Shown: positions 4,309 to 50,322 of the stretch, in pieces
How the letters are laid out: every line of letters begins with the position of its first letter
Position numbering within the stretch: the stretch's first letter is position 1
DNA from: Chiloscyllium plagiosum
Lineage: Eukaryota
Length of the DNA stretch: 51,562 nt
Assembly: GCF_004010195.1 (NCBI RefSeq)
Contig: NC_057753.1
Location: forward strand, 3,751,514 to 3,803,075
Reading direction: 5' to 3'
Program-made: the position numbers and the translations under genes
Notes under the pieces: model-generated
The model's database searches: none
Told to the model about the DNA's origin: nothing
What the model saw: only the letters and a program-made list of their open reading frames with translations

Positions 4309-4619
4309 CCCTGTGCAGTGAGATGTCCCCGGACAGTTTTGAAGCTGTCTATGACCTCTATATCCTTTTGAAAGGGTCAGTGCAGTGGAGACAACAACAA
4401 AGGAAAGAAGACAAAGAGGAGGAATAAAGCAAGAATTTTGGATACTATAAGGAAACAATTTCAATTTGCTGTCCTGATCTGACATTGGACATTTATATTT
4501 GTTTCATTCTGTCTTCACTGCCTGAACTTGACCTTTAGTCTGAAGCTTTGTCCTGACTTTCTCTTAATAAAGCTGCTCCATAGCTGAATATTATTGCAAT
4601 ATCAGATCCTTTTCTCAAC

Positions 4620-4870
4620 AAAGTGCAAGTTCACACCAGGAAGATGCCATTCCATATGTGGGAGAGGATCCTTTTGTTTGTGCAGCCTCATTGCACTTCT
4701 CATTGTAAAAGATCTTTTTCATTATTTGTACAGAATGGAGGGTTTTCAAAGCAGTGAAGTTCTATTAAAATACCAGTGCACTCACTGGAGGGAAACCAGT
4801 CACTTGAGTTGAGTGTGGAAAGGGATTCACTCTGTCCTTCAACCTGCAGACACACTAGTGAGCTCCCATC
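4620..4870 (+). pseudogene. Decayed C2H2 zinc-finger gene remnant
   Basis: Reads ...QVHTRKMPF / CGRG... / LLKYQCTH (frameshift) GGKPVT*VECGKGFTLSFNLQTH**, i.e. HTGEKP-linked fingers with stops and frameshifts. Confidence 0.75.
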
Positions 4871-5409
4871 TGACTGAGTTCTTGGATTCTGTTGTTCTCC
4901 TAGCCACTTCCATTTGGTATGAAGATGGCGGATCATTTAACTCAGTATCCTGTTCCACTTCCTCCCCAAAGCTTTTGATCCCACAAGCTTCCACAAGCTT
5001 CAGTTTCTTGTGGACACTCACCACAGGAATGACTGTACAGTGTTCTCCACAAACAATGTCCCAGATGGACATTTCAATTCTCATTCCACTCCTTGATAAC
5101 ATATAGTCTTTTCACTTGGAATTCTGTGCAGTGTGATTGATTAGTACCCCTACGCAACCATCTCTCAATGACTGAAGCCAAAGGAGGAAGATGCTCTCAG
5201 CACTTGTGAAACATCACAGGAGAGAAGTGGTTTCAAGCAGGATAGATGATGGCAATGGGGGGTTTTGTTTTCTCTTTATGGTTGGTACTACTTGCTAACT
5301 GTCCCTATAAGTGCAGGAGAAACCTTTTGACAGGATTTGCCTTATTATAGCATTATTTAAGGTCTGTACTACTAAACAACTACAAAATAAGAAGTATAAA
5401 TGCAATAAT

Positions 5410-7319: not shown

Positions 7320-7685
7320 ACCCATAATCCCCCGCGGTGCAGACCGTCGACCCAGAGGCAGGAGAGCAGTGCGCAGGCGCAGAGTCGGCAGCGACTGGAA
7401 AATGCGCGGAGAGGGCGAAGGCGATGGGCTCCGTAAACCTCGGTGATGATGCAGGAAGGAGGAGCCGGTCGATCGCGCGAATGGACTGAGAGATTTCGTG
7501 AAGGGCTCGTGTAAGCCGCAAACCCCGAGTAGAATTACCCCGCGCCGCCGTTTGCACCCAAATGACCGACGGCTCCGGGCTTCCTCCCGGCGGCAGGGCC
7601 CTGCGCCGCTGCCGCCATCTTTGTTGGGGGCACTGGCGGCTCAGACGCATGCGTGGCCGCCATCTTTGTAGGGGGCAACGTTTTG
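7320..7685 (+). promoter_or_regulatory. CpG-island promoter and probable non-coding exon 1 of ZNF gene A
   Basis: Dense CpG; NRF1-like tgcgcaggcgca (~7370) and acgcatgcgt; candidate donor gtaagc at 7511; two YY1 sites gccgccatctttg at 7611 and 7656. Confidence 0.75.
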
Positions 7686-7687
7686 AA

Positions 7688-7957
7688 TGAGTGGGCGGAG
7701 CTTGCTGCCCATTGTTCCGGGTGGAGACAACTTGTCCATCAGGCTGCATCAGCCCTTCACACCCAATGTCTTGTTGATGAGGCAGAGAGGCTTCAAAGAA
7801 GGAAAGGAAGCAAATCCTGCTCTCCAGGTCTCACTGTGCCATGGGTCTCTTTGCTCCATGTGTTCAAAGATCTGTGGCTCCTTTTAGACACGTGCACCTA
7901 CAGACCCAAAACTCAGGACCCTGTGCGGAAGTCATCCTCAAATTGAGTGACTGACCA
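7688..7957 (+). mobile_element. RTE-clade LINE 3' end
   Basis: NEWAELAAHCSGWRQLVHQAA...EAERLQRRK followed by CSMCSKICGS, the characteristic RTE C-terminus. Confidence 0.7.
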
Positions 7958-10745: not shown

Positions 10746-10921
10746 CCCTTCATTAATTGAATCTACTTTTGTGTTTTGTGGGCTCTCTGTTACTCCAATT
10801 TTTCTGTTCAAAATAAATTTCACAGAGTGTTAGAAGGGGTGGATTTGTAATTGGGCAACAGAAGCGAACGGCAAATCAGGACCTGTCTGAATTACCAAGT
10901 TTCTGGTGACCCGATTTGAAC

Positions 10922-12121
10922 ATGGAAGGGGAAAGCACTGTTCACAGCGGAGAGACACTGCACACGCCTCCTGGTTGCCGCCAGGATTTCAGCCAGTCTT
11001 CTGGTGTGTTGGAACACAGCCAGAAAGAGAAGAAACCTTGGAAGTGTGGGGACTGTGCGAAGGGATTCCGATTCCCGTCAGAGCTGGAGGTTCATCGGCG
11101 CACTCACACTGGAGAAAGGCCATTCACCTGCTCCAAGTGTGGGAAGAGGTTCACTCTGTTATCCCACCTGCTGACCCACCAGAGAGTTCACACCGGGGAG
11201 AGGCCGTTCACCTGCACCGAGTGTGGGAAGGCTTTCACTCAGCTGTCGCACTTGCTGAAACACCAGCTCGTTCACACCGACAAGAGACCTTTTCAGTGCC
11301 CAGACTGTGGGAAGTGCTACAAGAGTTCGGATAATCTGACGTCCCATCAACGTGTTCACACGGATGAGAGACTGTTCAGGTGCTCTCAGTGCGGGACTGG
11401 GTTCGGGCGGTCATCGCACCTCACTGCCCACCAGCGGGTTCACACCGGGGAGAGGCCGTTCACCTGCTCTGTGTGTGGGAAGGGGTTCACACAGTCAACC
11501 CACCTGCTGAGGCACCACCGAATTCACACTGGGGAGAGACCGTTCCATTGCCTGGATTGCGGGATGTGCTTCACAAGTTCTGAGGAACTGGCGTCCCATC
11601 AACTAGTTCACACTGATGAGAGACCGTTCATGTGTTCTCACTGCGGGACTGGGTTCAAGAAATCATTCCAGCTGACTGTCCACCAACGGATCCATTCTGG
11701 AGAGAGGCCATTCACCTGCTCCGAGTGTGGCAAGGGATTCACTCGCTCATTCCACCTGCTAAGACACCAGCAGGTTCACACTGGAGAGAAACCTTTTAAG
11801 TGTCTGAACTGTGGGAAATGCTTCAAGAGTTCTGGGGAACTAATCTGCCATCAACGTGTTCACACTGATGAGAGGCCATTCAGGTGCTCTCACTGTGGAA
11901 CAGGCTTCAGGTTATCATCTCATCTCACTGTGCACCAGCGTATTCACACTGGAGAGAGGCCGTTTACCTGCTCTGTGTGTGGGAAGACATTCACTCAGTC
12001 ATCTAACCTTCTGGCACACCAGAGGACACACACTGGAGAGAAGCCGTTCGCCTGCCCCGTGTGCAGAAAGAGATTTGCTCAGTCGTCCAACCTCCTGGCA
12101 CACCAGCGGATTCACAACTAA
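10922..12121 (+). CDS. ZNF gene A: C2H2 zinc-finger protein, 399 aa, 13 tandem fingers, no recognisable effector domain
   Basis: Uninterrupted ORF from aacATGG. Thirteen Cx2Cx12Hx3H motifs with TGERP/TDERP linkers. Acceptor tttcacag ends at 10825; in-frame TGA at 10907-10909; AATAAA at 12545. Confidence 0.93.
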
Positions 12122-15624: not shown

Positions 15625-17504
15625 CACAATGGGAGGATATTTAATTGGGGAAAAGGAAACTATGATATTATCAGACGTGAGTTGGGAAGCATGGACTGGG
15701 AGCAATTGTTCCATGGAAAGGGCATTATAGACATGTGGAAACTGTTGAAGGATCATTGTTGCGCGTGATGAATAAATATGTCCCCCTGAGACAGGCAAGA
15801 AGGGGTAAGATAAAGGAACCTTGGATGACGAGAGCGGAGGAGCTTCTCGTCAAAAGAAAGAAGGCAGCTTACGTNNNNNNNNNNNNNNNNNNNNNNNNNN
15901 NNNNNNNNNNNNNNNNNNNNNNNNNNNNNNNNNNNNNNNNNNNNNNNNNNNNNNNNNNNNNNNNNNNNNNNNNNNNNNNNNNNNNNNNNNNNNNNNNNNN
16001 NNNNNNNNNNNNNNNNNNNNNNNNNNNNNNNNNNNNNNNNNNNNNNNNNNNNNNNNNNNNNNNNNNNNNNNNNNNNNNNNNNNNNNNNNNNNNNNNNNNN
16101 NNNNNNNNNNNNNNNNNNNNNNNNNNNNNNNNNNNNNNNNNNNNNNNNNNNNNNNNNNNNNNNNNNNNNNNNNNNNNNNNNNNNNNNNNNNNNNNNNNNN
16201 NNNNNNNNNNNNNNNNNNNNNNNNNNNNNNNNNNNNNNNNNNNNNNNNNNNNNNNNNNNNNNNNNNNNNNNNNNNNNNNNNNNNNNNNNNNNNNNNNNNN
16301 NNNNNNNNNNNNNNNNNNNNNNNNNNNNNNNNNNNNNNNNNNNNNNNNNNNNNNNNNNNNNNNNNNNNNNNNNNNNNNNNNNNNNNNNNNNNNNNNNNNN
16401 NNNNNNNNNNNNNNNNNNNNNNNNNNNNNNNNNNNNNNNNNNNNNNNNNNNNNNNNNNNNNNNNNNNNNNNNNNNNNNNNNNNNNNNNNNNNNNNNNNNN
16501 NNNNNNNNNNNNNNNNNNNNNNNNNNNNNNNNNNNNNNNNNNNNNNNNNNNNNNNNNNNNNNNNNNNNNNNNNNNNNNNNNNNNNNNNNNNNNNNNNNNN
16601 NNNNNNNNNNNNNNNNNNNNNNNNNNNNNNNNNNNNNNNNNNNNNNNNNNNNNNNNNNNNNNNNNNNNNNNNNNNNNNNNNNNNNNNNNNNNNNNNNNNN
16701 NNNNNNNNNNNNNNNNNNNNNNNNNNNNNNNNNAAGTGATGCATTTTGGAAGGTCGAACTTGAAAGTTGAGTACAGGATTAAAGACGGAATTCTTGGCAG
16801 TGTGGAGGAACAGAGAGATCTTGGAGTGCAGGTACATAGATCTCTTAAAATTGTCACCCAAGTGGACAGGGTTGTTAAGAAAGCATATGGTGTTTGGCTT
16901 TCATTATCAGGGGGATTGAGTTTAAGAGCCGTGAGATCTTGTTGCAGTTCTATAAAACTTTGGTTAGACCGCACTTGGAATACTGCGTCCAGTTCTGGTC
17001 GCCCTATTATAGGAAAGATGTGGATGCTTTGGAGAGGGTTCAGAGGAGGTTTACCAGGATGCTGCCTGGACTGGAGGGCTTATCTTATGAAGAGAGGTTG
17101 ACTGAGCTTGGACTTGTCTCATTGGAAAAAAAAAGGAAGAGAGGGGACCTAATTGAGGTGTACAAGATAATGAGAGGCATAGATAGAGTTGATATCCAGA
17201 GACTTTTTCCCAGGGCAGAAATTGTTAATACGAGCGGTCATAGTTTTTAGCTGGTTGGAGGAAAGTATAGAGGGGATGTCAGAGGTGGGTTCTTTACGCA
17301 GAGAGTTGTGAGAGCATGGAATGCGTTGCCAGCAGCAGTTGTGGAAGCGAGGTCATTGGGGACATTTAAGAGACTGCTGGACATGCATATGGTCACAGAT
17401 ATTTGAGAGTTCGTACACTAGGTTTACCTTACATGAGGATCAATGGTCGTCACAACACCGTGGGCTGAAGAGCCTGTTCTGTGCTGTACTGTTCTATGTT
17501 CTAT
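15625..17504 (+). mobile_element. CR1 LINE spanning the assembly gap
   Basis: KYVPLRQ..KEPWMT before the gap; VMHFGRSN...LVRPHLEYCVQFWSP after it; tail (ttctatg)n. Confidence 0.9.
15875..16733. other. Assembly gap (859 N)
   Basis: Run of N. Confidence 1.
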
Positions 17505-24457: not shown

Positions 24458-25036
24458 ACAAATGTGGATGCACTGGTTACAAAGGCCCAACAACGTCTCT
24501 TCTTCCTCAGGCAGCTGAGGAAATTTGGCATGACGGCGAATACCCTCGCCAAATTTTATAGGTGCGCCATCGAAAGCATTCTGTGGATATATTAACTGTA
24601 CCATTCAAGATTGGAGACCGTTACAGAGAGTGTGGTGAACTCAGCCCAGACAATCACATAGGCCAACCTCCCATCTATAGAATCCGTCTACCAGGCCCAC
24701 TGTCAAGGAAAGGCCGCCAGCATTCTCAAAGATCCATCCCACCCCGGCAATGTTTTTCTACAGCCTGTACCATCGGGGAGAAGGTACAGAAGCCTGAACA
24801 CACACACACACACACCAGCCGGTTTCGCAACAGTTTCTACCCTACTGTTGGTAGAATGCTGAATGGTCTCTCAAACTCATAACATTCGCCTGTACCTGTG
24901 TTTTTGTTTTTGCTGCTGTTTACCTATTATTTACTTATCTATGCTACTTAACTCTGTGACCTGCCTGTATTGCTCACAAGACAAAGCTTTTCACTGTGCC
25001 TCGGTACACGTGACAATAAATTCAATTCAATTCAAA
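24458..25036 (+). mobile_element. Rex1/Babar LINE 3' end
   Basis: LVTKAQQRLFFLRQLRKFG; TSRFRNSFYP; tail aataaa(ttcaa)n; near-identical to 49740-50322. Confidence 0.85.
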
Positions 25037-25314
25037 TCAAAATCTCGAGTTGCAAATTTTCACACTGATATCCTTTTTCTTAAAACATTTTAATATGAAC
25101 AACTAAAGTGACCAACGTTTGAGATTGTCAAAAGGAACAAATGTGTTTGAGGAGTCGAAAAGGTACAACACATTGTGATGAGCACAAAACTGAAGTAATG
25201 AATGTTTATGCAAAAATATTAATACCTACAACTGAGGTGGTGTTTAATAACAACTGTAGACACAGACACCAGTGTAAACAGTTCAGTCCTGGATCTGACT
25301 CATAGGAAAGTCCA

Positions 25315-25995
25315 TCACTGTGGTTCCTCATGGACCCGTTGGTGTCTCAGCAGGGCGGTCGAACAAGTGAATTTCTTACCACACTCGGAGCAAGTGAACA
25401 GTCCCTCCCCAGTGTGAATGCGCTGGTGTATCAACAGAGTGGATGACTGAGTGAATGCCCTCCCACACACTGAGCAGGTGAATGGCCTCTCCCCGGTGTG
25501 AACCCGTTGGTGTTTCGTGAGGCCAGATAACTGCCTGAACTCGTTCCCACAGTGAGAGCACCTGAATGGCCTCTCGTCAGAGTGAATACGTTGATGGCGC
25601 ATCAAGTCCCCAGAACATTTAAAGCACTTCCCACAGTCTGGGCACTTAAAAGGTCTCTCGCCGGTGTGGACCCGCCGGTGCCTCAGCAGGGTGGAGGACT
25701 CTGTGAATCCCTTGCCACACGTGGAGCAGGTGAATGGTCTCTCCCCAGTGTGAATTCGCTGGTGTTTCAGAAGGTCTGACGACTGAGTGAATCGCTTCCC
25801 ACAGTCTGAGCAAACGAACGGCCTCTCCTCGGCATGACTGTGCTGAGGCGTTTCCAGCTCAGCCAGGGATCCGAATCCTCTCCCACATTCCCCGTACATC
25901 TCTCCATTCCGACTGCATTTATGTTCTGACAGCCCAGATGACTGGCTGAAGCTGTGTCCGCAAACACAGCACGTGTACAGTTTCTCCCCTTCCAT
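25315..25995 (-). CDS. ZNF gene B: C2H2 zinc-finger protein, 226 aa, 6 intact plus 2 degenerate N-terminal fingers
   Basis: Open ORF from ggcATGG (MEGEKLYTC...), paralogous to gene A (MEGES...). Acceptor tttcacag ends at 26097; in-frame TGA at 26011-26013. Confidence 0.9.
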
Positions 25996-26160
25996 GCCCA
26001 AACTCCAAAGTCATGACCAGTGGGGTGACTCTGTCAGACCCAGCTTTGTTTGTTTGGCTTCCTGTGCCTGGCTGCTAAACGTCTCCATCGAACAGCCTGT
26101 GAAACCGATATAAAACAGACGAATGGAGTGAGAGTCAACACACAAGAAAACAGTACCACA

Positions 26161-33624: not shown

Positions 33625-33770
33625 CAAAAGTGAGGACTGCAGATGCTGGAAATCAGAGTCTAGATGAGAGTGGTGCTGGAAAATCCCTCTTCAGGCAAAA
33701 GCCATCCATTTTCCTGCTCATCGGATGCTGCCTGACCTGCTGTGCTTTTCCAGCACCATTCTAATCTAGA
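33625..33770. mobile_element. Head-to-head family-A PLE ends
   Basis: Inverted arms; acacat(a)ttcaattgagg is repeated on both flanks (~33607-33623 and ~33770-33786), TSD-like. Confidence 0.75.
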
Positions 33771-34084
33771 CACATTCAATTGAGGCATTCAAGATGACCT
33801 TGGAACATTATTTAGATAGAAACAATGTTCAAGGTAATGGGGTAAAGGCAAGACAATGGCATTAGGTTGTGAAATTCATTCAGAAAGCCAGTGCACTCAA
33901 TGATGAGCTGAATGGCCTCCTTTGCGAGGTAACAATTCTGTGATTGTGAAATTGTTGTGAATTTAAACATGTATCACAATCCTTCATCATCACTGTGTGA
34001 GCAACCTGTACTTGTTTACCTAACAGCATGGTGGTGGGGGGGGGCAGCTTCACCTCACAAACTGCGCTGATTCAGGAAGGTTAC

Positions 34085-34114
34085 CTCCTGGCCAACTGTG
34101 CGTTGACAAAACAT
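34085..34114 (-). other. Predicted 30-nt 5' micro-exon of ZNF gene B
   Basis: Strong acceptor ttgttttgttctctctctccacag| and donor gag|gtaacc. Confidence 0.5.
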
Positions 34115-34439
34115 CTGTGGAGAGAGAGAACAAAACAAAGTGAATGAACTATGTATAATATCTTGGTCAATTTGATGGTCAGTGTATGCTCAGAAGCAAA
34201 AGAGAAGTATACAGGAAAAACAGTCTTAACTGTTAAAAATGCTGTAGGTAATGTTGCTGGGTAGGTTAGCAACATTACATGGTCAGGGGAGGGTCAGCAG
34301 TAGAAACCTCTAAGAAAAATGTACAGAGAAGTAACAGAGTTAAAATGCACTGATTAGGAGAGCCAGAGGGAGTTAGATAGTGACAGAAAACTGATCAGGG
34401 TGGGCACTAGTAGATATGAACAATGAATGGACAGGAAGG

Positions 34440-35080
34440 AAAAAAACCACCAGGCATGCGCCATGTTTCATATTGCCCCCCATAAATATGGCGTCTACGC
34501 AGCCACAAGGTCCTCAGTGCCCCTAACAAAGATGGTGGACGGCAACACGAGCTCGGAGATATCCGGAGTCCTTTCTCGTCCCCGACTCGTGCCAACAAAT
34601 TCTCATTCCAGCCACCGTGCCTTCCGCCATGTCTCCGTGCAATCGCCTGGTCCCTCCACCATCGTTGTCCTGCTGCCTGCTTGATGATCGGCGCGGACAC
34701 AAGTCTTGGAAAGGGGGAGGGAGAAGAAACACAGTTCCCGCCCAGAGGCCCCACGTGACTGAGGGCGGCGCTGCGCCAATAGGAAGGTCGCCCGGCCTTG
34801 GAGGACCGAGCGTGGGCAGCTGGTCCTCCAACCAATCGGAACGAGGTAGGGGCGGGGAGGTCAGAGGTCGGACACGTCATGCCGCTGAATGCACTGAAGC
34901 CTGAATGGATTCGGGAGGTGAGGGAAAGGGTAAGGAAGGAAAAGGAAAACAGCGGAGGGCGGGAGACTGGTTTACGCATTGGAAAGATTTATTCCCCTCC
35001 ACTATCCGAATTAGAAACTCGTCGTCTAGCGTTTGCAGCAAACGGTTGTGGGCGCCAGGCCCTGATAGGCCCAGTTACCT
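34440..35080. promoter_or_regulatory. CpG-island promoter of gene B, probably bidirectional
   Basis: CpG-rich; E-box cacgtg (~34752), two CCAAT boxes (~34776, ~34832), GC box ggggcgggg (~34849), NRF1-like gcatgcgc. YY1-type motifs lie on minus at 34472-34540 and on plus from 35081. Confidence 0.75.
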
Positions 35081-35890
35081 CCGCCATCTTTGTTGGGAGT
35101 AATGGTCCACCTGACGTACGAGCGACCGCCATCTTTGTTAGGGGTAATATTCAACTGGACGTACGAGCGACCGCCATCTTTGGTGGGGGTAACGGTCAAT
35201 GGGACGCATGAGCGACCGCCATCTTGGTGGGGGTAACGGTCAATGGGACGCATGAGCGACCGCCATCTTGGTGGGGGTAACGGTCAACGGGACGCACGAG
35301 CGACCACTATCTTTGGTGGGGGTAACGGTCAACGGGACGTACGAGCGACTGTCCTCGTTTGGAATAATGGTTGTGGGATATAAATGAATTAATGTTATTT
35401 CTGCAAGTATAAATTCTGATACAGAATAGGAATGAGAAAATACATATTCAGCAAAAAGAAAGCATGAGACATGAATACAGAACAATGGTGGATATATGGG
35501 CAAACAGGAAAGCATCTGTTTCCCCACTATCTTTGGTGGGGGTAATGGTCAACGGGACGTACGAGCGACCGCCATCTTTGGTGGGGGTAATGGTCAACGG
35601 GACGTACGAGCGACCGCCATCTTTGGTGGGGGTAACGGTCAACAGAACGTACAAGTGACTGCCCTCCTTATTGGGAGTAATAGTCAATGGGACATACAAG
35701 CGACTGTCCTCGTTTGGAATAATGGTCAACGGGACATACAAGCAACTGCCACCTTTGTTGAGAGTAATGGTCAACGGTATGAACGAGTGACCGCCGTCTT
35801 GCTGGGAGTAATGGTCAATGGGTTGTCTGACCGAAGGTCATCTTTCGGGGTAGATTTCGGAGGGAACCCTGCTCGTGACCGCCGCGTTTT
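35078..35890 (+). repeat. 45-bp tandem minisatellite (~16 units) carrying YY1 sites
   Basis: Unit gcgaccgccatctttggtgggggtaacggtcaacgggacgtacga. CCGCCATCTT at 35081, 35126, 35171, 35216, 35260, 35569 and 35614; AT-rich interruption at ~35372-35522. Confidence 0.92.
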
Positions 35891-36028
35891 TTTATAGTAG
35901 ACACAATTGAGGTTGGAAGAACACAGCAAGTGTAAATATATGCCTTAGTACGAAGCATTTAAATGATATATTTGTTTCAGTTACTTATAATACAATGCTA
36001 TGCTTAACCATTAACTAACACAGTGGGT

Positions 36029-36614
36029 TGTGTAACCCTTGTGGGGACGGACAGACAGTGGAAAAGTACTGAGTACATCTGACTTGTGAAGATATGCTGA
36101 TGTAAACACACAATAGGAATGACTTTTAACAAAGAGCAGTGTGTACTGGCAGCCTTGGTGGCGGCTGGGAGAGCGAGGCAGACAGCGGGGGTGTTGCCAC
36201 CCTGTGAGTGCACATGCAGGACATGTTGTAGTCTGTGGTTTTAAACAAAAACAAGAACTATTTCGCGCCACCACCTGCAGAAGGGGGTCACATGGGGTCA
36301 GTTATCCAGGAATGCGAGAAGGAGGAGAATGGAGTCAGGTCAACAGTCAATCAAGAAGACAACCACACCTTAAATGCTTGCACAATGTTCTGTGATTACA
36401 TGACGTTTTGTACTGTATAAAAGACTGGGTCAGGGGCAGGATAGGGGTCGGACTTCGTGAACTGACACACTTTGCTGTTTGTCAGGAACGGGAAGACCTA
36501 GACCCAGAGCTCTGTATACTTTATCCACTTACTGCTAAAATAAACTAAGAGTTTGAGACCGATTATCTTCTCCTATTGCTTCATTTAAAGAACACGCAGG
36601 ACTGGGCTCACACA
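36029..36614 (+). mobile_element. Possible solo LTR
   Basis: Imperfect terminal inverted repeats tgtgtaaccc/gggctcacaca, TATA (tataaaa ~36416), AATAAA (~36539); no TSD seen. Confidence 0.4.
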
Positions 36615-36654
36615 TAGAGGAAAGTAAGGTGGTAAATTGAGCCAAAGTCTGACA

Positions 36655-37720
36655 CAAGCCAAGGCAGCATCAGGTGGTGGAGGTCAATGTTTCAGGTGTA
36701 ACCCTTCTTCAGGAATAGAGGTGGGGATAGAGTGGAGCTGCAAGTAAAGAGCAGAGGGGAAAGGGGTGCAATGGTGAGGTAGTGATAGGTGAACACAGGT
36801 GGTGGGTATGACCTGGTTGGAAGGAAGGGTCCATCGGTGGAATGGAAAAGAGGTGGTGGGACTGGAAAAGGACTAAGCTGATGAGAAGGAAGGTTATTTG
36901 AAATTGGAGAACTCAATGTTGAGTCCTCTGGGCTGTCGGCTGCGCAGGCGGAAGAGAAGGTGTTCCTCCTGTTTGCAGTCTAATTCACTGTGATAATGGA
37001 GGAGGCTGAGGATGGACATGTCAGAGAGGGAATGGGAAGGGGAATTTAAATGGGTGGTCAGGCTGGCCCTAGCAGGCCTGGCCGAGATGCTCAGTGAAAC
37101 GTTCCCTTAGTTTATGGTTGGTCACATGGTGTGGTCTTCACTACATCTGATGCACTAAACTAAAGTTGGGGGAGAGGTAGGTGAACCTTTGTCTAACCTG
37201 GAAGGATTGTTTGGGGCTGAAGGTGAGAGGAGTGGTGTATGGCAGGTTTTGCATCTTTTACAATGGGAGGAACAGTGTCTGTGTATGTTTGCGACATCGA
37301 ACAGTCCCTCTTCAGTACATGCACAGGTATTCTTCCCAACTCTTCTGCTGTTACACTGATGACTGCTCCCTGCTCCCAGGTTGGACTGCATCAGTTCGTG
37401 AACCTCACCAAGAACTCTCACCATGCCCTTTAAATTCACTTGGTCCATCTCAGACATCTCCCTCCCCTTTCTTGACCTCTCAGTTTCCATCTCCGGCAAC
37501 AGTCTACAGACTAACATTTACTGTAAATCCACAGACCCCCATAACCACCTGGACTACACCTCCTCCCACTCTGTATCCTGCAGAAACCCCACCCCATCTT
37601 TCCAATTCCTCCATTGGTCGCATCTGCTCTGACAAGGAGACATTCCACTCTCAAGCATCCCACATCCTCCAGCCTCCCGCCTGTCTACTTTTGGATTCCA
37701 GCATCTGTAATTTTTTTTGC
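36655..37720. mobile_element. Penelope-like element with internal inversion: GIY-YIG and terminus on minus, RT thumb on plus
   Basis: Plus: FKFTWSISDISLPFLDLSVSISGNSLQTNIYCKSTD..LDYTSSH. Minus: CKRCKTC and LNIEFSNF. Hammerhead core ctgaagaagggttacacctgaaacatt on minus at ~36686-36714. Confidence 0.85.
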
Positions 37721-44279: not shown

Positions 44280-44510
44280 CAAAGTGAACATTGTTCAGTT
44301 CCATATGTGATTAACAGTAAAAGCCAACTGCTTTTCATCTTGCTTTCATCGTTGTTCATCTTGCTGGTGTCTCAGCAGTGATTGATAAAATCCCATCTGA
44401 TACACAGCCTCAAAGATTGGTCCCGCTCCAGTGTGAACACATTCATGCATGTCCTGGGAGTAATTTGTTCTCCAGTGCACCATTTGCCCTTCTCTTTCCA
44501 AGTGGTGAGG
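44280..44510 (-). pseudogene. Decayed C2H2 zinc-finger 3' end plus 3'UTR
   Basis: Minus CVHTGAGPIF...GFYQSLLRHQQ. Plus tggtgtctcagcag and the adjacent gttcagt..at.tga segment match the end of gene B (25270-25352). Confidence 0.6.
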
Positions 44511-44584
44511 CTTGAGAATTTCGATAGAGAGAAATGGAGGAACAAGAGTATGTCTTTCAGCCCCTTGAGTCTGTTCACTATCCA

Positions 44585-45410
44585 GAGAGATAGGTAGAGG
44601 GGCAGGTAGCATTGAAGGAGGCATGGAGGCAGCAGAGGGATTTGGACAGGTTAGGAGAGTAGGCAAAGAAGTGGCAGGTGGAATACACCGTGGGGAAGTG
44701 TGAGGTCATGCACTTTGATAGGAAGAATCATGCACTTTGATAGGAAGAATAGAGGCGTGGACTATTTTCTAAATAGGGAGAAAATTCAGAAGCTGGATCA
44801 GTGGTGCTGGAAGAGCACAGCAATTCAGGCAGCATCCGAGGAGCTTCGAAATCAAAAGTCTGAGTGCAAAAGAGACTTTGGAGTTCTCATCTAGAATTCT
44901 CTCGAGGCAAACTTGCAGATTGAGTTAGTAGTTAAGAAGACAACTACGTTTATTTTGAGAAGCCTTGAATGTAAAAACAGCTGCACTTCTGAGGCTCGAG
45001 AAGGCTCTGGTCAGACCACATTTGGAGTGTTGTGCGCAGTTTTGAGCCCCACGTCTTAGGAACGATGTACTGGCCCTGGAGCATGTTCAGAGAAGGTTCA
45101 CGAGAATGGTCCCAGGAATGAAAAGCTTAACATATAAAGTACGCTTGTGAACTCTAGGTCTATAATCAATGGAGGATCTAATTGAAATTTACAGAATACT
45201 GAATGGCGTGGACAGAGTGGATGTTGGGAGGATGTTTCCATTGGTAGGAGGGACTAGGACCCGAGGGCACAGCCTTGGAGTAAAGGAACAGAGATGAGGA
45301 GAAACTTCTTCAACCAGAGAGTGGGGAATCTATGGAATTCACTGCACAGAAGGCTGTGGAGGCCGGGTCATTGAGTATATTTAAGACGGAGATAGAGAGG
45401 CTTTTGATTG
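44585..45410 (+). mobile_element. CR1 LINE 3' portion
   Basis: KCEVMHFDRKN, LVRPHLECCAQF, FFNQRVGNLWNSL. Confidence 0.85.
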
Positions 45411-45765: not shown

Positions 45766-46004
45766 ACACGGTTGGCAGTCCTGGCTTTGTAGATAACATC
45801 TATGCAGTCGAAAGTTTCTGACCTAGGTCTTCAGTGGGACTGAACAGAACCTCAAATCAGTGAACACACAGGGCAGGACTACTGTAAGGCAGTGTGATTG
45901 TCTCCCCCTCTTTCCTTCTGTGAAGTCGCTCTGCTGCATCAATAAGACACTGGGTGTGAATAGCTAATGTAGCTTGAAGAATAAGTTGTCTTCATGCTGA
46001 GCAA

Positions 46005-46270
46005 TTGATGTGGAGGAGCCAGTGTTGGATTGGGGTGGACAAAGCTAAAAATCACAACACCAGGTTGTAGGCCTATAGGCTTATTTGGAAGCACTAGCTT
46101 TTGGAGTGCTGCTCCCTCATCAGGGAGCTGTGGAGCAGGACCACAAGACACAGAATTTTACAGAAAAAGATTACAGTGTGATGGAACTGATATGATGTAT
46201 TGAACAAACCTAGATTGCTGTTAAGTGTGTCATCTTTTAGAATGGGTTGCAGGTTTCAGTTCATTAATAT
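46005..46270 (-). mobile_element. Family-B PLE terminal region
   Basis: Minus ctgatgagggagcagcactccaaaagctagtg at ~46092-46123. Confidence 0.75.
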
Positions 46271-47049: not shown

Positions 47050-47305
47050 CCCACACCGCCAATAAAGATGACGGCCTTTTCCCCATTCCTGGCTCTGGGA
47101 GGCCAGAGGCGGACTTGGGCAAAGATGGCGACTGGGCATGCGCTCTCTGAATCACGGCGGCAGCAAGTCGTCACGGCGCATGCTCCCGGTCTCCCTGGAG
47201 CTGACAGGTGTGAATGACGTCGTTCTCGACCAATAGGAAGCGGGGCTGTCCTCCAGCCGATGGGAGAGGACAGGGGGCGGTGCTGAGCCTGGATCAGCGC
47301 GAGGA
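47050..47305. promoter_or_regulatory. Third CpG-island promoter, paralogous to the 34.8-kb promoter
   Basis: YY1 aagatggcg (~47122), NRF1-like gcatgcgc, CRE tgacgtc (~47215), ccaataggaag (~47229), GC box. Confidence 0.7.
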
Positions 47306-49399: not shown

Positions 49400-50322
49400 A
49401 CACTCAACATTGGAGCCCCCCCAGAGATGTGTACTCAGCCTCCTACTGTACTCACTGTATACCCATGACTGCATCGCCAAATACCAGACTAATGTCATTT
49501 ACACATTCGCTGATGACACCACCATAGTCTGCGACGAAACAGATTACAGACGGGAGGTGGAACCACCTGAAAAAATGGTGCACTGAGAACAACCTAGCTC
49601 TCAATGCCGGCAAAACCAAGGAACTCATTATTGACTTTCAGCGGGATGTTACTCATGCCCCCCTACACATCAACAGCACAGAGAGTGTCAAGCTCCTGGG
49701 AGTGGTCATCCTCAGCAAGCTTTCTTGGACTCTTCATGTGGACACCCTGGTTACAAAGGCCCAACAATGTTTCTTCTTCCCCAGGCAGCTGAGGAAATTT
49801 GGTATGATGGCGAATACCCTTGCCAACTTTTATAGGTGCGCCAGCGAGAGCCATTCTGTCTGGATGTATCACTACGGTATGGCAAATGTACCATTCAAGA
49901 TTAGAGATTGTTACAGAGAGTGTGGTGAACTCGGCCCGGACAATCACAAAGACCAACCTCCCATCTATAGAATCCATCTACCAGGCCCGCTGTCAAGGAA
50001 AGGCCGCCAGCATTCTCAAAGATCCATCCCACCCTGGCAATGTTTTTCTACAGCCTCTACCATCGGGGAGAAGGTACAGAAGCCTGAATACATACACCAA
50101 CCGGTGTCGAAACAGTTTCTCCCCTACTGTTGTTAGAATGCTGAACGGTCTCACAAACTCTTAACATTCACCTGTACCTATGTTTTTGTTTTTGCTGCTG
50201 TTTCCCTATTATTTACTATCTGTGCTACTTAACTCTGTGAATCTGCCTGTATTGCTCACAAGACAAAACTTTTCACTGTGCCTCGGTACACGTGACAATA
50301 AATTCAATTCAATTCAATTCAA
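49400..50322 (+). mobile_element. Rex1/Babar LINE RT and 3' end
   Basis: GAP..CVLS / LLYSLYTHDC / FADDTTIV, LNAGKTKELIIDF, KAQQCFFFPRQLRKF; (aattc)n tail. Confidence 0.88.

What the first reader, a model, noticed from the sequence alone, without database searches (positions are those of the whole stretch)
35078..35890. A ZNF-promoter YY1 module amplified into a ~16-copy, 45-bp CpG-rich array
Seen: the unit gcgaCCGCCATCTTtggtgggggtaacggtcaacgggacgtacga repeats with a 44-45-bp period; 7 units keep a perfect CCGCCATCTT. It is not a random minisatellite. The gene A promoter has the same extended motif twice, exactly 45 bp apart (7611, 7656), with a spacer sharing gacgcatg, and the other side of this same island has a pair 44 bp apart (34488, 34532). 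Established: CGCCATNTT is the YY1 site and its binding is CpG-methylation sensitive. Tandem YY1 arrays are known at mammalian epigenetically controlled loci such as Peg3 (itself a C2H2 gene with a bidirectional promoter) and Xist. Inference: a two-unit promoter module of this shark ZNF family expanded into a possible methylation-sensitive switch, copy-number rheostat or looping anchor. I know of no description of this in cartilaginous fish but cannot search.
Basis: partly seen in the sequence, partly recalled or inferred. Interest (0 to 1): 0.72.

Follow-up and report, generated by a model that had tools for sequence, protein, structure and literature searches.

The report
YY1-site minisatellite beside shark zinc-finger promoter
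A short control module shared by neighbouring shark zinc-finger gene promoters has been copied about fourteen times at one of them, giving a variable and partly decayed run of sites for the common regulator YY1; it is real but looks more like an ordinary promoter minisatellite than a dedicated epigenetic switch.

Summary
The array is real: 13 full 42-45-bp units, one half unit and two faint remnants, in two blocks split by a 152-bp piece of a high-copy repeat. Seven units keep CCGCCATCTT. Units 1-2 align over 67 bp with a two-unit module downstream of the promoters of zinc-finger genes A and B, above all 200 shuffles. The extended motif occurs only at these three places in the window. The unit is not a high-copy repeat at 90% identity or more. 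The switch or rheostat reading is not supported. YY1 columns are no better conserved than the rest (87% against 85-89%). Half the units have lost the site, mostly by CpG deamination. A second sample carries a reshuffled allele. The array points away from gene B and no gene body follows it in the window; units 1-5 lie in an RNA contig of unknown strand. Best reading: a promoter-derived minisatellite whose proximal units probably bind YY1, with at most a modest effect on expression. Binding, methylation and genome-wide enrichment could not be tested.

The parts
35077..35166 (+). Founder units u1-u2: the counterpart of the two-unit promoter module of genes A and B; both keep the YY1 word
   Evidence: Ungapped 67-bp alignment to 7612-7678 (score 66, shuffle max 37) and an 89-column alignment to the B module (score 48, shuffle max 36)
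35167..35371 (+). Rest of block 1: u3, u4, u5 (YY1 intact; u4 and u5 are 44 bp), u6 (YY1 lost) and half unit u7 (YY1 lost)
   Evidence: TRF, alignments; u3 and u4 differ at 1 of 45 columns
35372..35523 (.). 152-bp AT-rich, CpG-free piece of a high-copy dispersed repeat that splits the array; lacks 10 bases seen in other copies
   Evidence: DNA-run contig depth 19381 and 10441 in the two bins against 7.6 baseline; X14 and X9 contigs of depth 565 and 611 match 35372-35511 and 35371-35525; GC 32%, 0 CpG
35520..35654 (+). Block 2 proximal units u8 (YY1 lost, left end truncated), u9 and u10 (YY1 intact); u9 (35565-35609) equals the majority consensus
35655..35830 (+). Distal decayed units u11-u14: no intact YY1 word, 5 of 20 consensus CpGs left
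   Evidence: deamination-type changes 15 of 40 at CpG positions against 9 of 65 at other C/G, Fisher p 0.008
35831..35890 (+).
   Evidence: Below 21 of 45 ungapped identity (absent from the scan); poor alignment
34730..34960 (.). Core of the CpG-island promoter (GC boxes, CCAAT, E-box); gene B starts on the minus strand near 34730-34770 (inferred)
   Evidence: Motif scan with recalled consensus words; contig ends at 34732 and 34740 and raw reads in 34638-34771
34473..34538 (-). Gene B two-unit module, 44-bp spacing, about 200-270 bases downstream of the inferred start
   Evidence: 76% over 67 bp to the gene A module, E 4e-7 within the window
34115..34230 (-). Spliced intron of gene B's leader (GT..AG on the minus strand), showing that X9 is RNA and that this transcription unit is expressed
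   Evidence: Joint 34114-34231, depth 60.9 in X9, 0 in DNA run X1; ends read
34902..35298 (.). Stretch covered by one RNA contig (X9 record 19) that includes units 1-5 of a different allele; strand unknown
   Evidence: depth 13.6, 15 other letters, 1 gap; 911 further letters do not lie on 33700-37700
7612..7678 (+). Gene A two-unit module, 45-bp spacing, both YY1 words perfect
10910..12121 (+). Gene A C2H2 zinc-finger exon (403 aa stop to stop, 12 zf-C2H2 stretches)
25315..26010 (-). Gene B C2H2 zinc-finger exon (231 aa stop to stop); its link to the promoter at 34750 is inferred from strand and layout, not shown by a splice joint
47050..47290 (-). Third promoter-like island (C) with one YY1 word near 47131 and a degenerate one at 47072, upstream of a faint zinc-finger relic at 44361-44741
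   Evidence: Sequence, relaxed scan, tblastn E 0.09-0.28; its alignments to A, B and the array do not exceed shuffles

Best explanation
A promoter-derived minisatellite. Zinc-finger genes of this cluster carry, about 200 bases downstream of their start, a pair of ~21-bp elements 44-45 bp apart: a YY1 word followed by a G-run ending in GGCA (shown for A and B). The outward-facing arm of gene B's CpG island carries a third, equally old copy of this pair (u1-u2; shown). That copy was amplified by slippage or unequal exchange, interrupted by a piece of a dispersed repeat, and still turns over between individuals (shown at sequence level). The promoter-proximal units sit in the island, keep their CpGs and most likely bind YY1 (inferred). 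The distal units have been methylated in the germline and lost the site by CpG deamination (inferred from the mutation spectrum). The likely effect is a modest, allele-dependent tuning of the level or direction of transcription from this island, or none; the extra copies show no sign of being kept for their YY1 sites.
For: Homology of u1-u2 to the A and B modules above all 200 shuffles; identity is 13-19 of 21 in the motif against 4-12 of 20 in the spacer over 24 comparisons, so the founding motif has been under constraint. The extended motif has 11 matches in the window, all in A, B or the array, with 0.00 expected. No pile-up of DNA contigs on the units. YY1 columns differ at 17 of 130 cells, the extension at 17 of 156 and the rest at 45 of 299; distinct changes are 10 in 10 columns against 34 in 35. 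Intact CpGs: 22 of 30 in u1-u6, 11 of 15 in u8-u10, 5 of 20 in u11-u14. In the X9 allele, 12 of the 13 array substitutions listed are letters found in the same column of another unit, against a 31% background, p 7e-6; the changes are linked, so this p is optimistic. GGCA is present in 4 of 4 A/B copies and 0 of 14 array units. Human VNTRs linked to expression or methylation are enriched at promoters and enhancers (10.1101/2020.12.16.423078, abstract). Mammalian YY1 clusters near promoters were bound in 6 of 7 tested cases (PMC2665242, section 14).
Against: The five units nearest the promoter all keep the YY1 word and the four farthest all lack it; this fits selection on proximal sites as well as protection from methylation. 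Units 1-2 are also present in a run with a second organism label (34986-35136, 3 other letters in 151). Peg3's functional cluster also varies in number and spacing (PMC2665242), so turnover alone does not show neutrality. The column test has little power, because related units share changes. Only one DNA run and one other allele were seen. No binding, methylation or expression-by-allele data were available.
Confidence: 0.6

Rival explanations
1. A selected, Peg3-like YY1 cluster: the same-orientation sites next to a two-way CpG-island promoter act as an orientation-dependent activator or copy-number rheostat for gene B or an outward transcript, switched off by methylation.
For: Seven same-orientation perfect sites in 550 bp meet the published cluster rule of 3 motifs in 500 bp within 5 kb of a start (PMC2665242). 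The layout resembles Peg3 (PMC2615030, Background). An RNA contig covers units 1-5. The proximal 5 of 5 units are intact.
Against: No excess conservation of YY1 columns; 7 of 14 units have lost the site; a repeat fragment sits in the middle; no zinc-finger gene body was found on the plus strand downstream in the window (best tblastn E above 2); no raw single-cell reads in 34772-35307, at low depth. At Peg3 the sites did not control methylation or imprinting (PMC5526879).
Confidence: 0.24
2. The array acts at RNA level, as part of a leader or non-coding transcript crossing the island (repeat RNA, or repeated splice-donor-like words).
For: X9 record 19 spans 34902-35298 at depth 13.6, above about 1 in neighbouring intronic bins, and continues for 911 letters that do not lie on the stretch. 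Six donor-like words lie in the units.
Against: The plus strand of block 1 folds no better than shuffles (z -0.24); 0 Rfam matches at E 0.1 or below; the contig does not end at a donor-like word; its strand is unknown; block 2 has depth of only 1.1-2.7.
Confidence: 0.08
3. The unit comes from a transposon or satellite family, and the likeness to the promoter modules is convergence on a common YY1 word.
For: The array is flanked and interrupted by multi-copy elements. Older copies below 90% identity would have been missed by that call.
Against: No depth excess on the units; homology to A and B extends past the YY1 word and keeps the spacing; no other copy in 51.6 kb.
Confidence: 0.05
4. The array encodes a 15-residue repeat peptide, or is an assembly artefact.
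For: Open frames of 140 aa (plus) and 129 aa (minus) cross block 2; short-read assemblies can mis-join repeats.
Against: 44-bp and 42-44-bp units shift or shorten the frame; 0 Pfam families; 0 of 42 candidates pass for the minus frame; of 5 hits for the plus frame, the 3 I read are unrelated low-complexity repeats. An independent DNA run reproduces 33746-35187 and 35608-35958, but no piece spans 35188-35607, so the exact middle is unconfirmed.
Confidence: 0.03

Closest known systems
YY1 cluster in the Peg3 differentially methylated region (PMC4196374 passages; PMC2615030 abstract and Background; PMC5526879 abstract and Introduction)
   Same: Several same-orientation CGCCATCTT words inside a tandem repeat, in a CpG island beside a two-way promoter of a C2H2 zinc-finger gene; number of sites variable.
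   Different: Peg3 has about 10 sites over 2.5 kb in the first intron of the zinc-finger gene itself, kept across mammals, bound in vivo and methylated by parental allele. Here 7 sites lie in 550 bp upstream of and antisense to the zinc-finger gene, half the units have lost the word, and no conservation, binding or allelic methylation is shown.
Non-imprinted clustered YY1 sites near mammalian promoters (ECMFinder set of 31 loci, PMC2665242 section 14)
   Same: Meets the density and distance rule (3 motifs in 500 bp, within 5 kb of a start).
   Different: That set required the cluster in three species and was checked by ChIP; neither is shown here.
Promoter VNTRs carrying transcription-factor sites (human eVNTRs and mVNTRs, 10.1101/2020.12.16.423078 abstract; MNS16A of TERT, PMC5438627 seen as listing and start of abstract only)
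   Same: GC-rich minisatellite at a promoter, variant units, allelic reshuffling, position at an antisense-facing promoter arm.
   Different: Here the unit can be traced to a gene-family promoter module still present as plain pairs at two paralogues; no association with expression has been measured.
YY1 sites in the XIST P2 CpG island (PMC4363909, abstract)
   Same: Clustered YY1 words in a CpG island within a transcribed region.
   Different: XIST sites are conserved, bound only when unmethylated and tied to X inactivation; nothing comparable is shown here.

Membership tests
Clustered YY1 sites (ECMFinder definition) | At least 3 cgCCATntt motifs in 500 bp | tested here: met
   5 perfect words in 35081-35269, 7 in 35081-35623; rule from PMC2665242
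Clustered YY1 sites (ECMFinder definition) | Within 5 kb of a transcription start | tested here: met
   Spliced RNA 0.85 kb away and contig ends at 34732-34740; the exact start is inferred
Clustered YY1 sites (ECMFinder definition) | Cluster kept at the homologous place in several species | tested here: inconclusive
   Only a near-identical second organism label was seen (1 other letter in 384; units 1-2 with 3 in 151); no distant shark DNA could be searched
Clustered YY1 sites (ECMFinder definition) | YY1 bound in vivo | not testable with these tools
   No ChIP or CUT&Tag data available
Peg3-type imprinting control region | All sites in one orientation inside a tandem repeat | tested here: met
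   7 of 7 on the plus strand
Peg3-type imprinting control region | Cluster in the first intron of the zinc-finger gene | tested here: not met
   The array is upstream of and antisense to gene B (minus-strand intron at 34115-34230); no plus-strand zinc-finger exon follows in the window
Peg3-type imprinting control region | Motif conserved while the surrounding repeat diverges | tested here: not met
   Within the array, YY1 columns 87% against 85-89% elsewhere. The pattern holds only between the founder pair and A/B
Peg3-type imprinting control region | Parent-of-origin methylation set in the germline | not testable with these tools
   No methylation data; CpG decay in u11-u14 shows past germline methylation only
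Promoter minisatellite / VNTR | Head-to-tail units of 10-100 bp at a single locus | tested here: met
   TRF period 45; depth at or below baseline on the units
Promoter minisatellite / VNTR | Alleles differ in unit order or number | tested here: met
   The X9 allele differs by unit-type swaps, 12 of 13; a difference in total copy number was not shown directly
Promoter minisatellite / VNTR | Copy number associated with expression or methylation (eVNTR, mVNTR) | not testable with these tools
   Needs matched genotype and expression data
High-copy satellite or transposon | Many near-identical copies elsewhere in the genome | tested here: not met
   Unit bins 7.61, 3.99, 2.94, 3.9 against 19381 and 10441 for the inserted spacer, at 90% likeness; more diverged copies not tested

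The most novel reading that the evidence does not exclude
Shark zinc-finger cluster genes share a family-wide two-unit promoter element (YY1 word plus a fixed-distance GGCA, the core reported for the YY1 partner THAP1). At this locus the element has been amplified into a YY1-only array, having lost GGCA in every unit. The array tunes a two-way promoter by allele and by methylation spreading in from the distal end: an independent origin of a Peg3-like YY1 array in a cartilaginous fish, with its unamplified ancestor still visible next door.
Probability: 0.2. Interest if true: 0.65.

Novelty: new member of a known kind. Interest (0 to 1): 0.34.

Why it matters
If functional, it would give a clean natural series, from plain pair (genes A and B) to amplified polymorphic array, showing how tandem YY1 clusters like Peg3's can arise from an ordinary promoter element outside mammals. 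As it stands it is a traceable example of a promoter motif turning into a minisatellite. The more solid by-product is the shared two-unit promoter element of these shark zinc-finger genes, which none of my paper searches returned.

Tried and rejected
Whole-genome search for enrichment at zinc-finger promoters: no genome is held, so this remains open. Pattern scans: 0 matches in viral contigs; 10 single matches in metagenome contigs, each limited to 18-30 letters with one YY1-like word per locus, treated as chance. Coding reading: rejected; 3 of the 5 hits were read, 2 were not. Structured RNA: rejected for the plus strand of block 1; the minus strand was not folded. Canonical G-quadruplex pattern: 0 matches in 35077-35900 with loops up to 12. 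Full-length zinc-finger search was uninformative for taxonomy; the N-terminal search gave sharks as the highest-identity hits. Promoter C as a fourth full module: its alignments did not exceed shuffles, so it is kept only as a lead. The isolated YY1 words at 4922 and 21692 lie outside CpG islands and lack the extension. Terminal inverted repeats of the spacer: none found. Kim et al. 2006 (PMC1484457) is not held, so Peg3 facts come from later papers. Earlier-finding look-ups gave no look-alike of this locus. One search was a weak absence search: none of the 15 listed papers held the phrase sought.

Full report
Observation. Tandem Repeats Finder reports two blocks of period 45: 35081-35349 (6.0 copies, 89% matches) and 35529-35822 (6.6 copies, 79%). 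Unit by unit there are 13 full units, one half unit at 35345 and two remnants near 35831 and 35875 that barely align. '~16' is therefore an upper count. CCGCCATNTT occurs 11 times in the window against 0.18 expected; 7 matches are in the array, 2 are the gene A pair 45 bp apart, and 2 are isolated. CpG observed/expected is 1.09 across the array, 0.78 in the island to its left and 0.39 for the window; the stretch between the blocks has no CpG.

Setting. The window holds two C2H2 exons: gene A (plus, 10910-12121) and gene B (minus, 25315-26010). A faint relic lies on the minus strand at 44361-44741 (tblastn E 0.09-0.28), below a third promoter-like island near 47050-47290. No whole genome is held. 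The array is on the plus strand, about 310 bases upstream of gene B's inferred start and facing away from it. No plus-strand zinc-finger exon follows in the remaining 15.6 kb (best E above 2).

Origin. A 20-letter extended motif (YY1 word plus G-run) with up to 3 mismatches has 11 matches in the window: 2 at gene A, 2 at gene B and 7 in the array, with 0.00 expected. The A and B pairs are 76% identical over 67 bp. Units 1-2 of the array align to the A pair without gaps (score 66, maximum of 200 shuffles 37) and to the B pair (48 against 36); promoter C does not exceed shuffles (the shuffles permuted two-letter blocks). Over 24 comparisons, identity is 13-19 of 21 in the motif and 4-12 of 20 in the spacer. 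The three pairs are thus old paralogues with a constrained motif, and the array grew from the pair on the outward arm. All 4 A/B copies end the G-run in GGCA; 0 of 14 array units do. GGCA is the core reported for THAP1, which co-occupies promoters with YY1 (PMC5511047 and PMC13631171, passages). That link is a lead only, since four letters prove nothing.

Public reads. Of 24 runs listed I laid 4 on 33700-37700 at 90% likeness; the tool showed only the best-supported rows of each table. In DNA run X1, single-copy flanks have depth 7.6 and the bins made of units alone have 7.61, 3.99, 2.94 and 3.9, while the two bins holding the spacer have 19381 and 10441. The tool warns that depth is no copy number, but a contrast of over a thousandfold is clear. 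The units are not a high-copy family at this identity, and the 152-bp spacer is. X1 contigs reproduce 33746-35187 (7 other letters, 7 gap letters) and 35608-35958 (3 and 2); no piece spans the middle. Run X9 shows a minus-strand intron at 34115-34230 (depth 60.9, absent from X1), so it is RNA and the minus-strand unit is expressed. One X9 contig covers 34902-35298, including units 1-5, at depth 13.6, and continues for 911 letters that do not lie on the stretch; block 2 has only 1.1-2.7. Contigs give no strand, and other X9 contigs cover 34484-34921, so this may be an outward transcript or read-through from upstream. Bins between 34370 and 34905 reach only 1-7.6 against 60 for the spliced exon, so gene B's first exon is not pinned down. 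Raw single-cell reads (X21, 2% of the run) lie in 33968-34235 and 34504-34771 with one polarity; there are none in 34772-35307. A run with a second organism label (X14) holds 34350-34732 with 1 other letter and 34986-35136 with 3, too close to test conservation.

Selection and turnover. Against the majority unit, the YY1 columns differ at 17 of 130 cells (87% identity), the extension at 17 of 156 (89%) and the rest at 45 of 299 (85%). Distinct changes are 10 in 10 columns against 34 in 35, so the YY1 word is not specially kept. It is intact in u1-u5, u9 and u10 and lost in u6, u7, u8 and u11-u14; 6 of these 7 losses include a C-to-T or G-to-A change at the word's own CpG. Intact CpGs fall from 22 of 30 (u1-u6) and 11 of 15 (u8-u10) to 5 of 20 (u11-u14). 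In the distal units, deamination-type changes hit 15 of 40 CpG positions against 9 of 65 other C/G positions (p 0.008); the excess is not significant in the proximal groups (p 0.50, 0.34). Of the 13 array substitutions listed for the X9 allele, 12 are letters already present in that column of another unit (background 31%). This points to whole-unit swaps, the usual behaviour of minisatellites. Against my reading: the 5 units nearest the promoter are all intact, related units share changes so the column test is weak, and only one other allele was seen.

Mechanism. Shown: descent from the family's two-unit module, amplification, interruption by a repeat fragment, allelic reshuffling, and polar CpG decay. 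Inferred: the proximal units are unmethylated and bind YY1, because they are perfect words in an active island and 6 of 7 tested mammalian clusters were bound (PMC2665242, section 14); the distal units are or were methylated in the germline. In human cells YY1 activates from just downstream of a start, and sites further downstream were linked to repression of starts (PMC11269187, passages). An array some 180-700 bases downstream of an outward start and 300-900 upstream of gene B would then most plausibly modulate the level or direction of initiation rather than act as a switch. I put 0.6 on a mostly neutral promoter minisatellite with at most modest tuning and 0.24 on a selected Peg3-like cluster.

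Comparison. Peg3 has about 10 same-orientation sites in a tandem repeat in its first intron (PMC4196374, passages). They act as an orientation-dependent activator and are bound only on the unmethylated allele (PMC2615030, abstract and Background). Mutating 7 of them changed expression but not methylation or imprinting (PMC5526879, abstract and Introduction). The shark array resembles this in layout but fails two tested features: it is not in the zinc-finger gene's intron, and the motif is not conserved above its spacer. It is not filed as an imprinting-type control region. It meets the tested features of a promoter minisatellite, a class often linked to expression and methylation in humans (10.1101/2020.12.16.423078, abstract). 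XIST was seen as an abstract only (PMC4363909). I read no supplementary files; the list of 31 loci in the supplement of PMC2665242 might include further zinc-finger genes.

Novelty. Searches returned no paper on YY1 arrays or zinc-finger promoter elements in sharks; passages of the whale shark genome paper (PMC8455134) do not treat them. The library lacks most subscription papers, so absence is not established. The locus appears undescribed but belongs to known kinds. Verdict: observation largely right, origin supported, function unshown and not favoured by the sequence evidence; interest 0.34.

Noticed in passing
window 7612-7678 (+), 34473-34538 (-), 35081-35147 (+): A two-unit promoter element (YY1 word plus G-run, 44-45 bp spacing) is shared by paralogous zinc-finger promoters; the unamplified copies end in GGCA, a possible THAP-family core. 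It may be a family-wide signature and is better supported than any role of the array.
   Followed up: partly
window 34902-35298, run X9 record 19: An RNA contig covers units 1-5 and continues for 911 letters that lie nowhere in 33700-37700; splice partner or structural allele unexplained.
   Followed up: no
window 7711-7806 (+) and 45910-46005 (-): A 96-bp low-copy segment (79% identical) lies downstream of both promoter A and promoter C in the sense direction; possibly a shared leader exon.
   Followed up: no
window 44361-44741 and 47050-47290 (-): Probable dead zinc-finger gene C with a surviving CpG-rich promoter; it could drive read-through into gene B and place the array in an intron.
   Followed up: partly
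window 35930-36682: A 753-bp multi-copy insertion with LTR-like features (TATA-like and poly(A)-like words, read by eye) interrupts an older repeat just right of the array; contigs from other loci join 35929 to 36683.
   Followed up: partly
window 35608-35958, run X1: The contig over the distal block has about half the depth of the flank (3.9 against 7.6), as expected if that sample carries two different alleles; weak, since depth is not copy number.
   Followed up: no
window 4613-4858 (+): Remnant of a further zinc-finger exon upstream of gene A (tblastn E 0.003).
   Followed up: no
window 49736-50322 and 24462-25040: A 596-bp low-copy direct duplication, 88% identical; the ORF at 49528-50136 looks like a retrotransposon fragment (by eye).
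   Followed up: no
window 15875-16733: Assembly gap of 859 N inside a LINE-like region.
   Followed up: no
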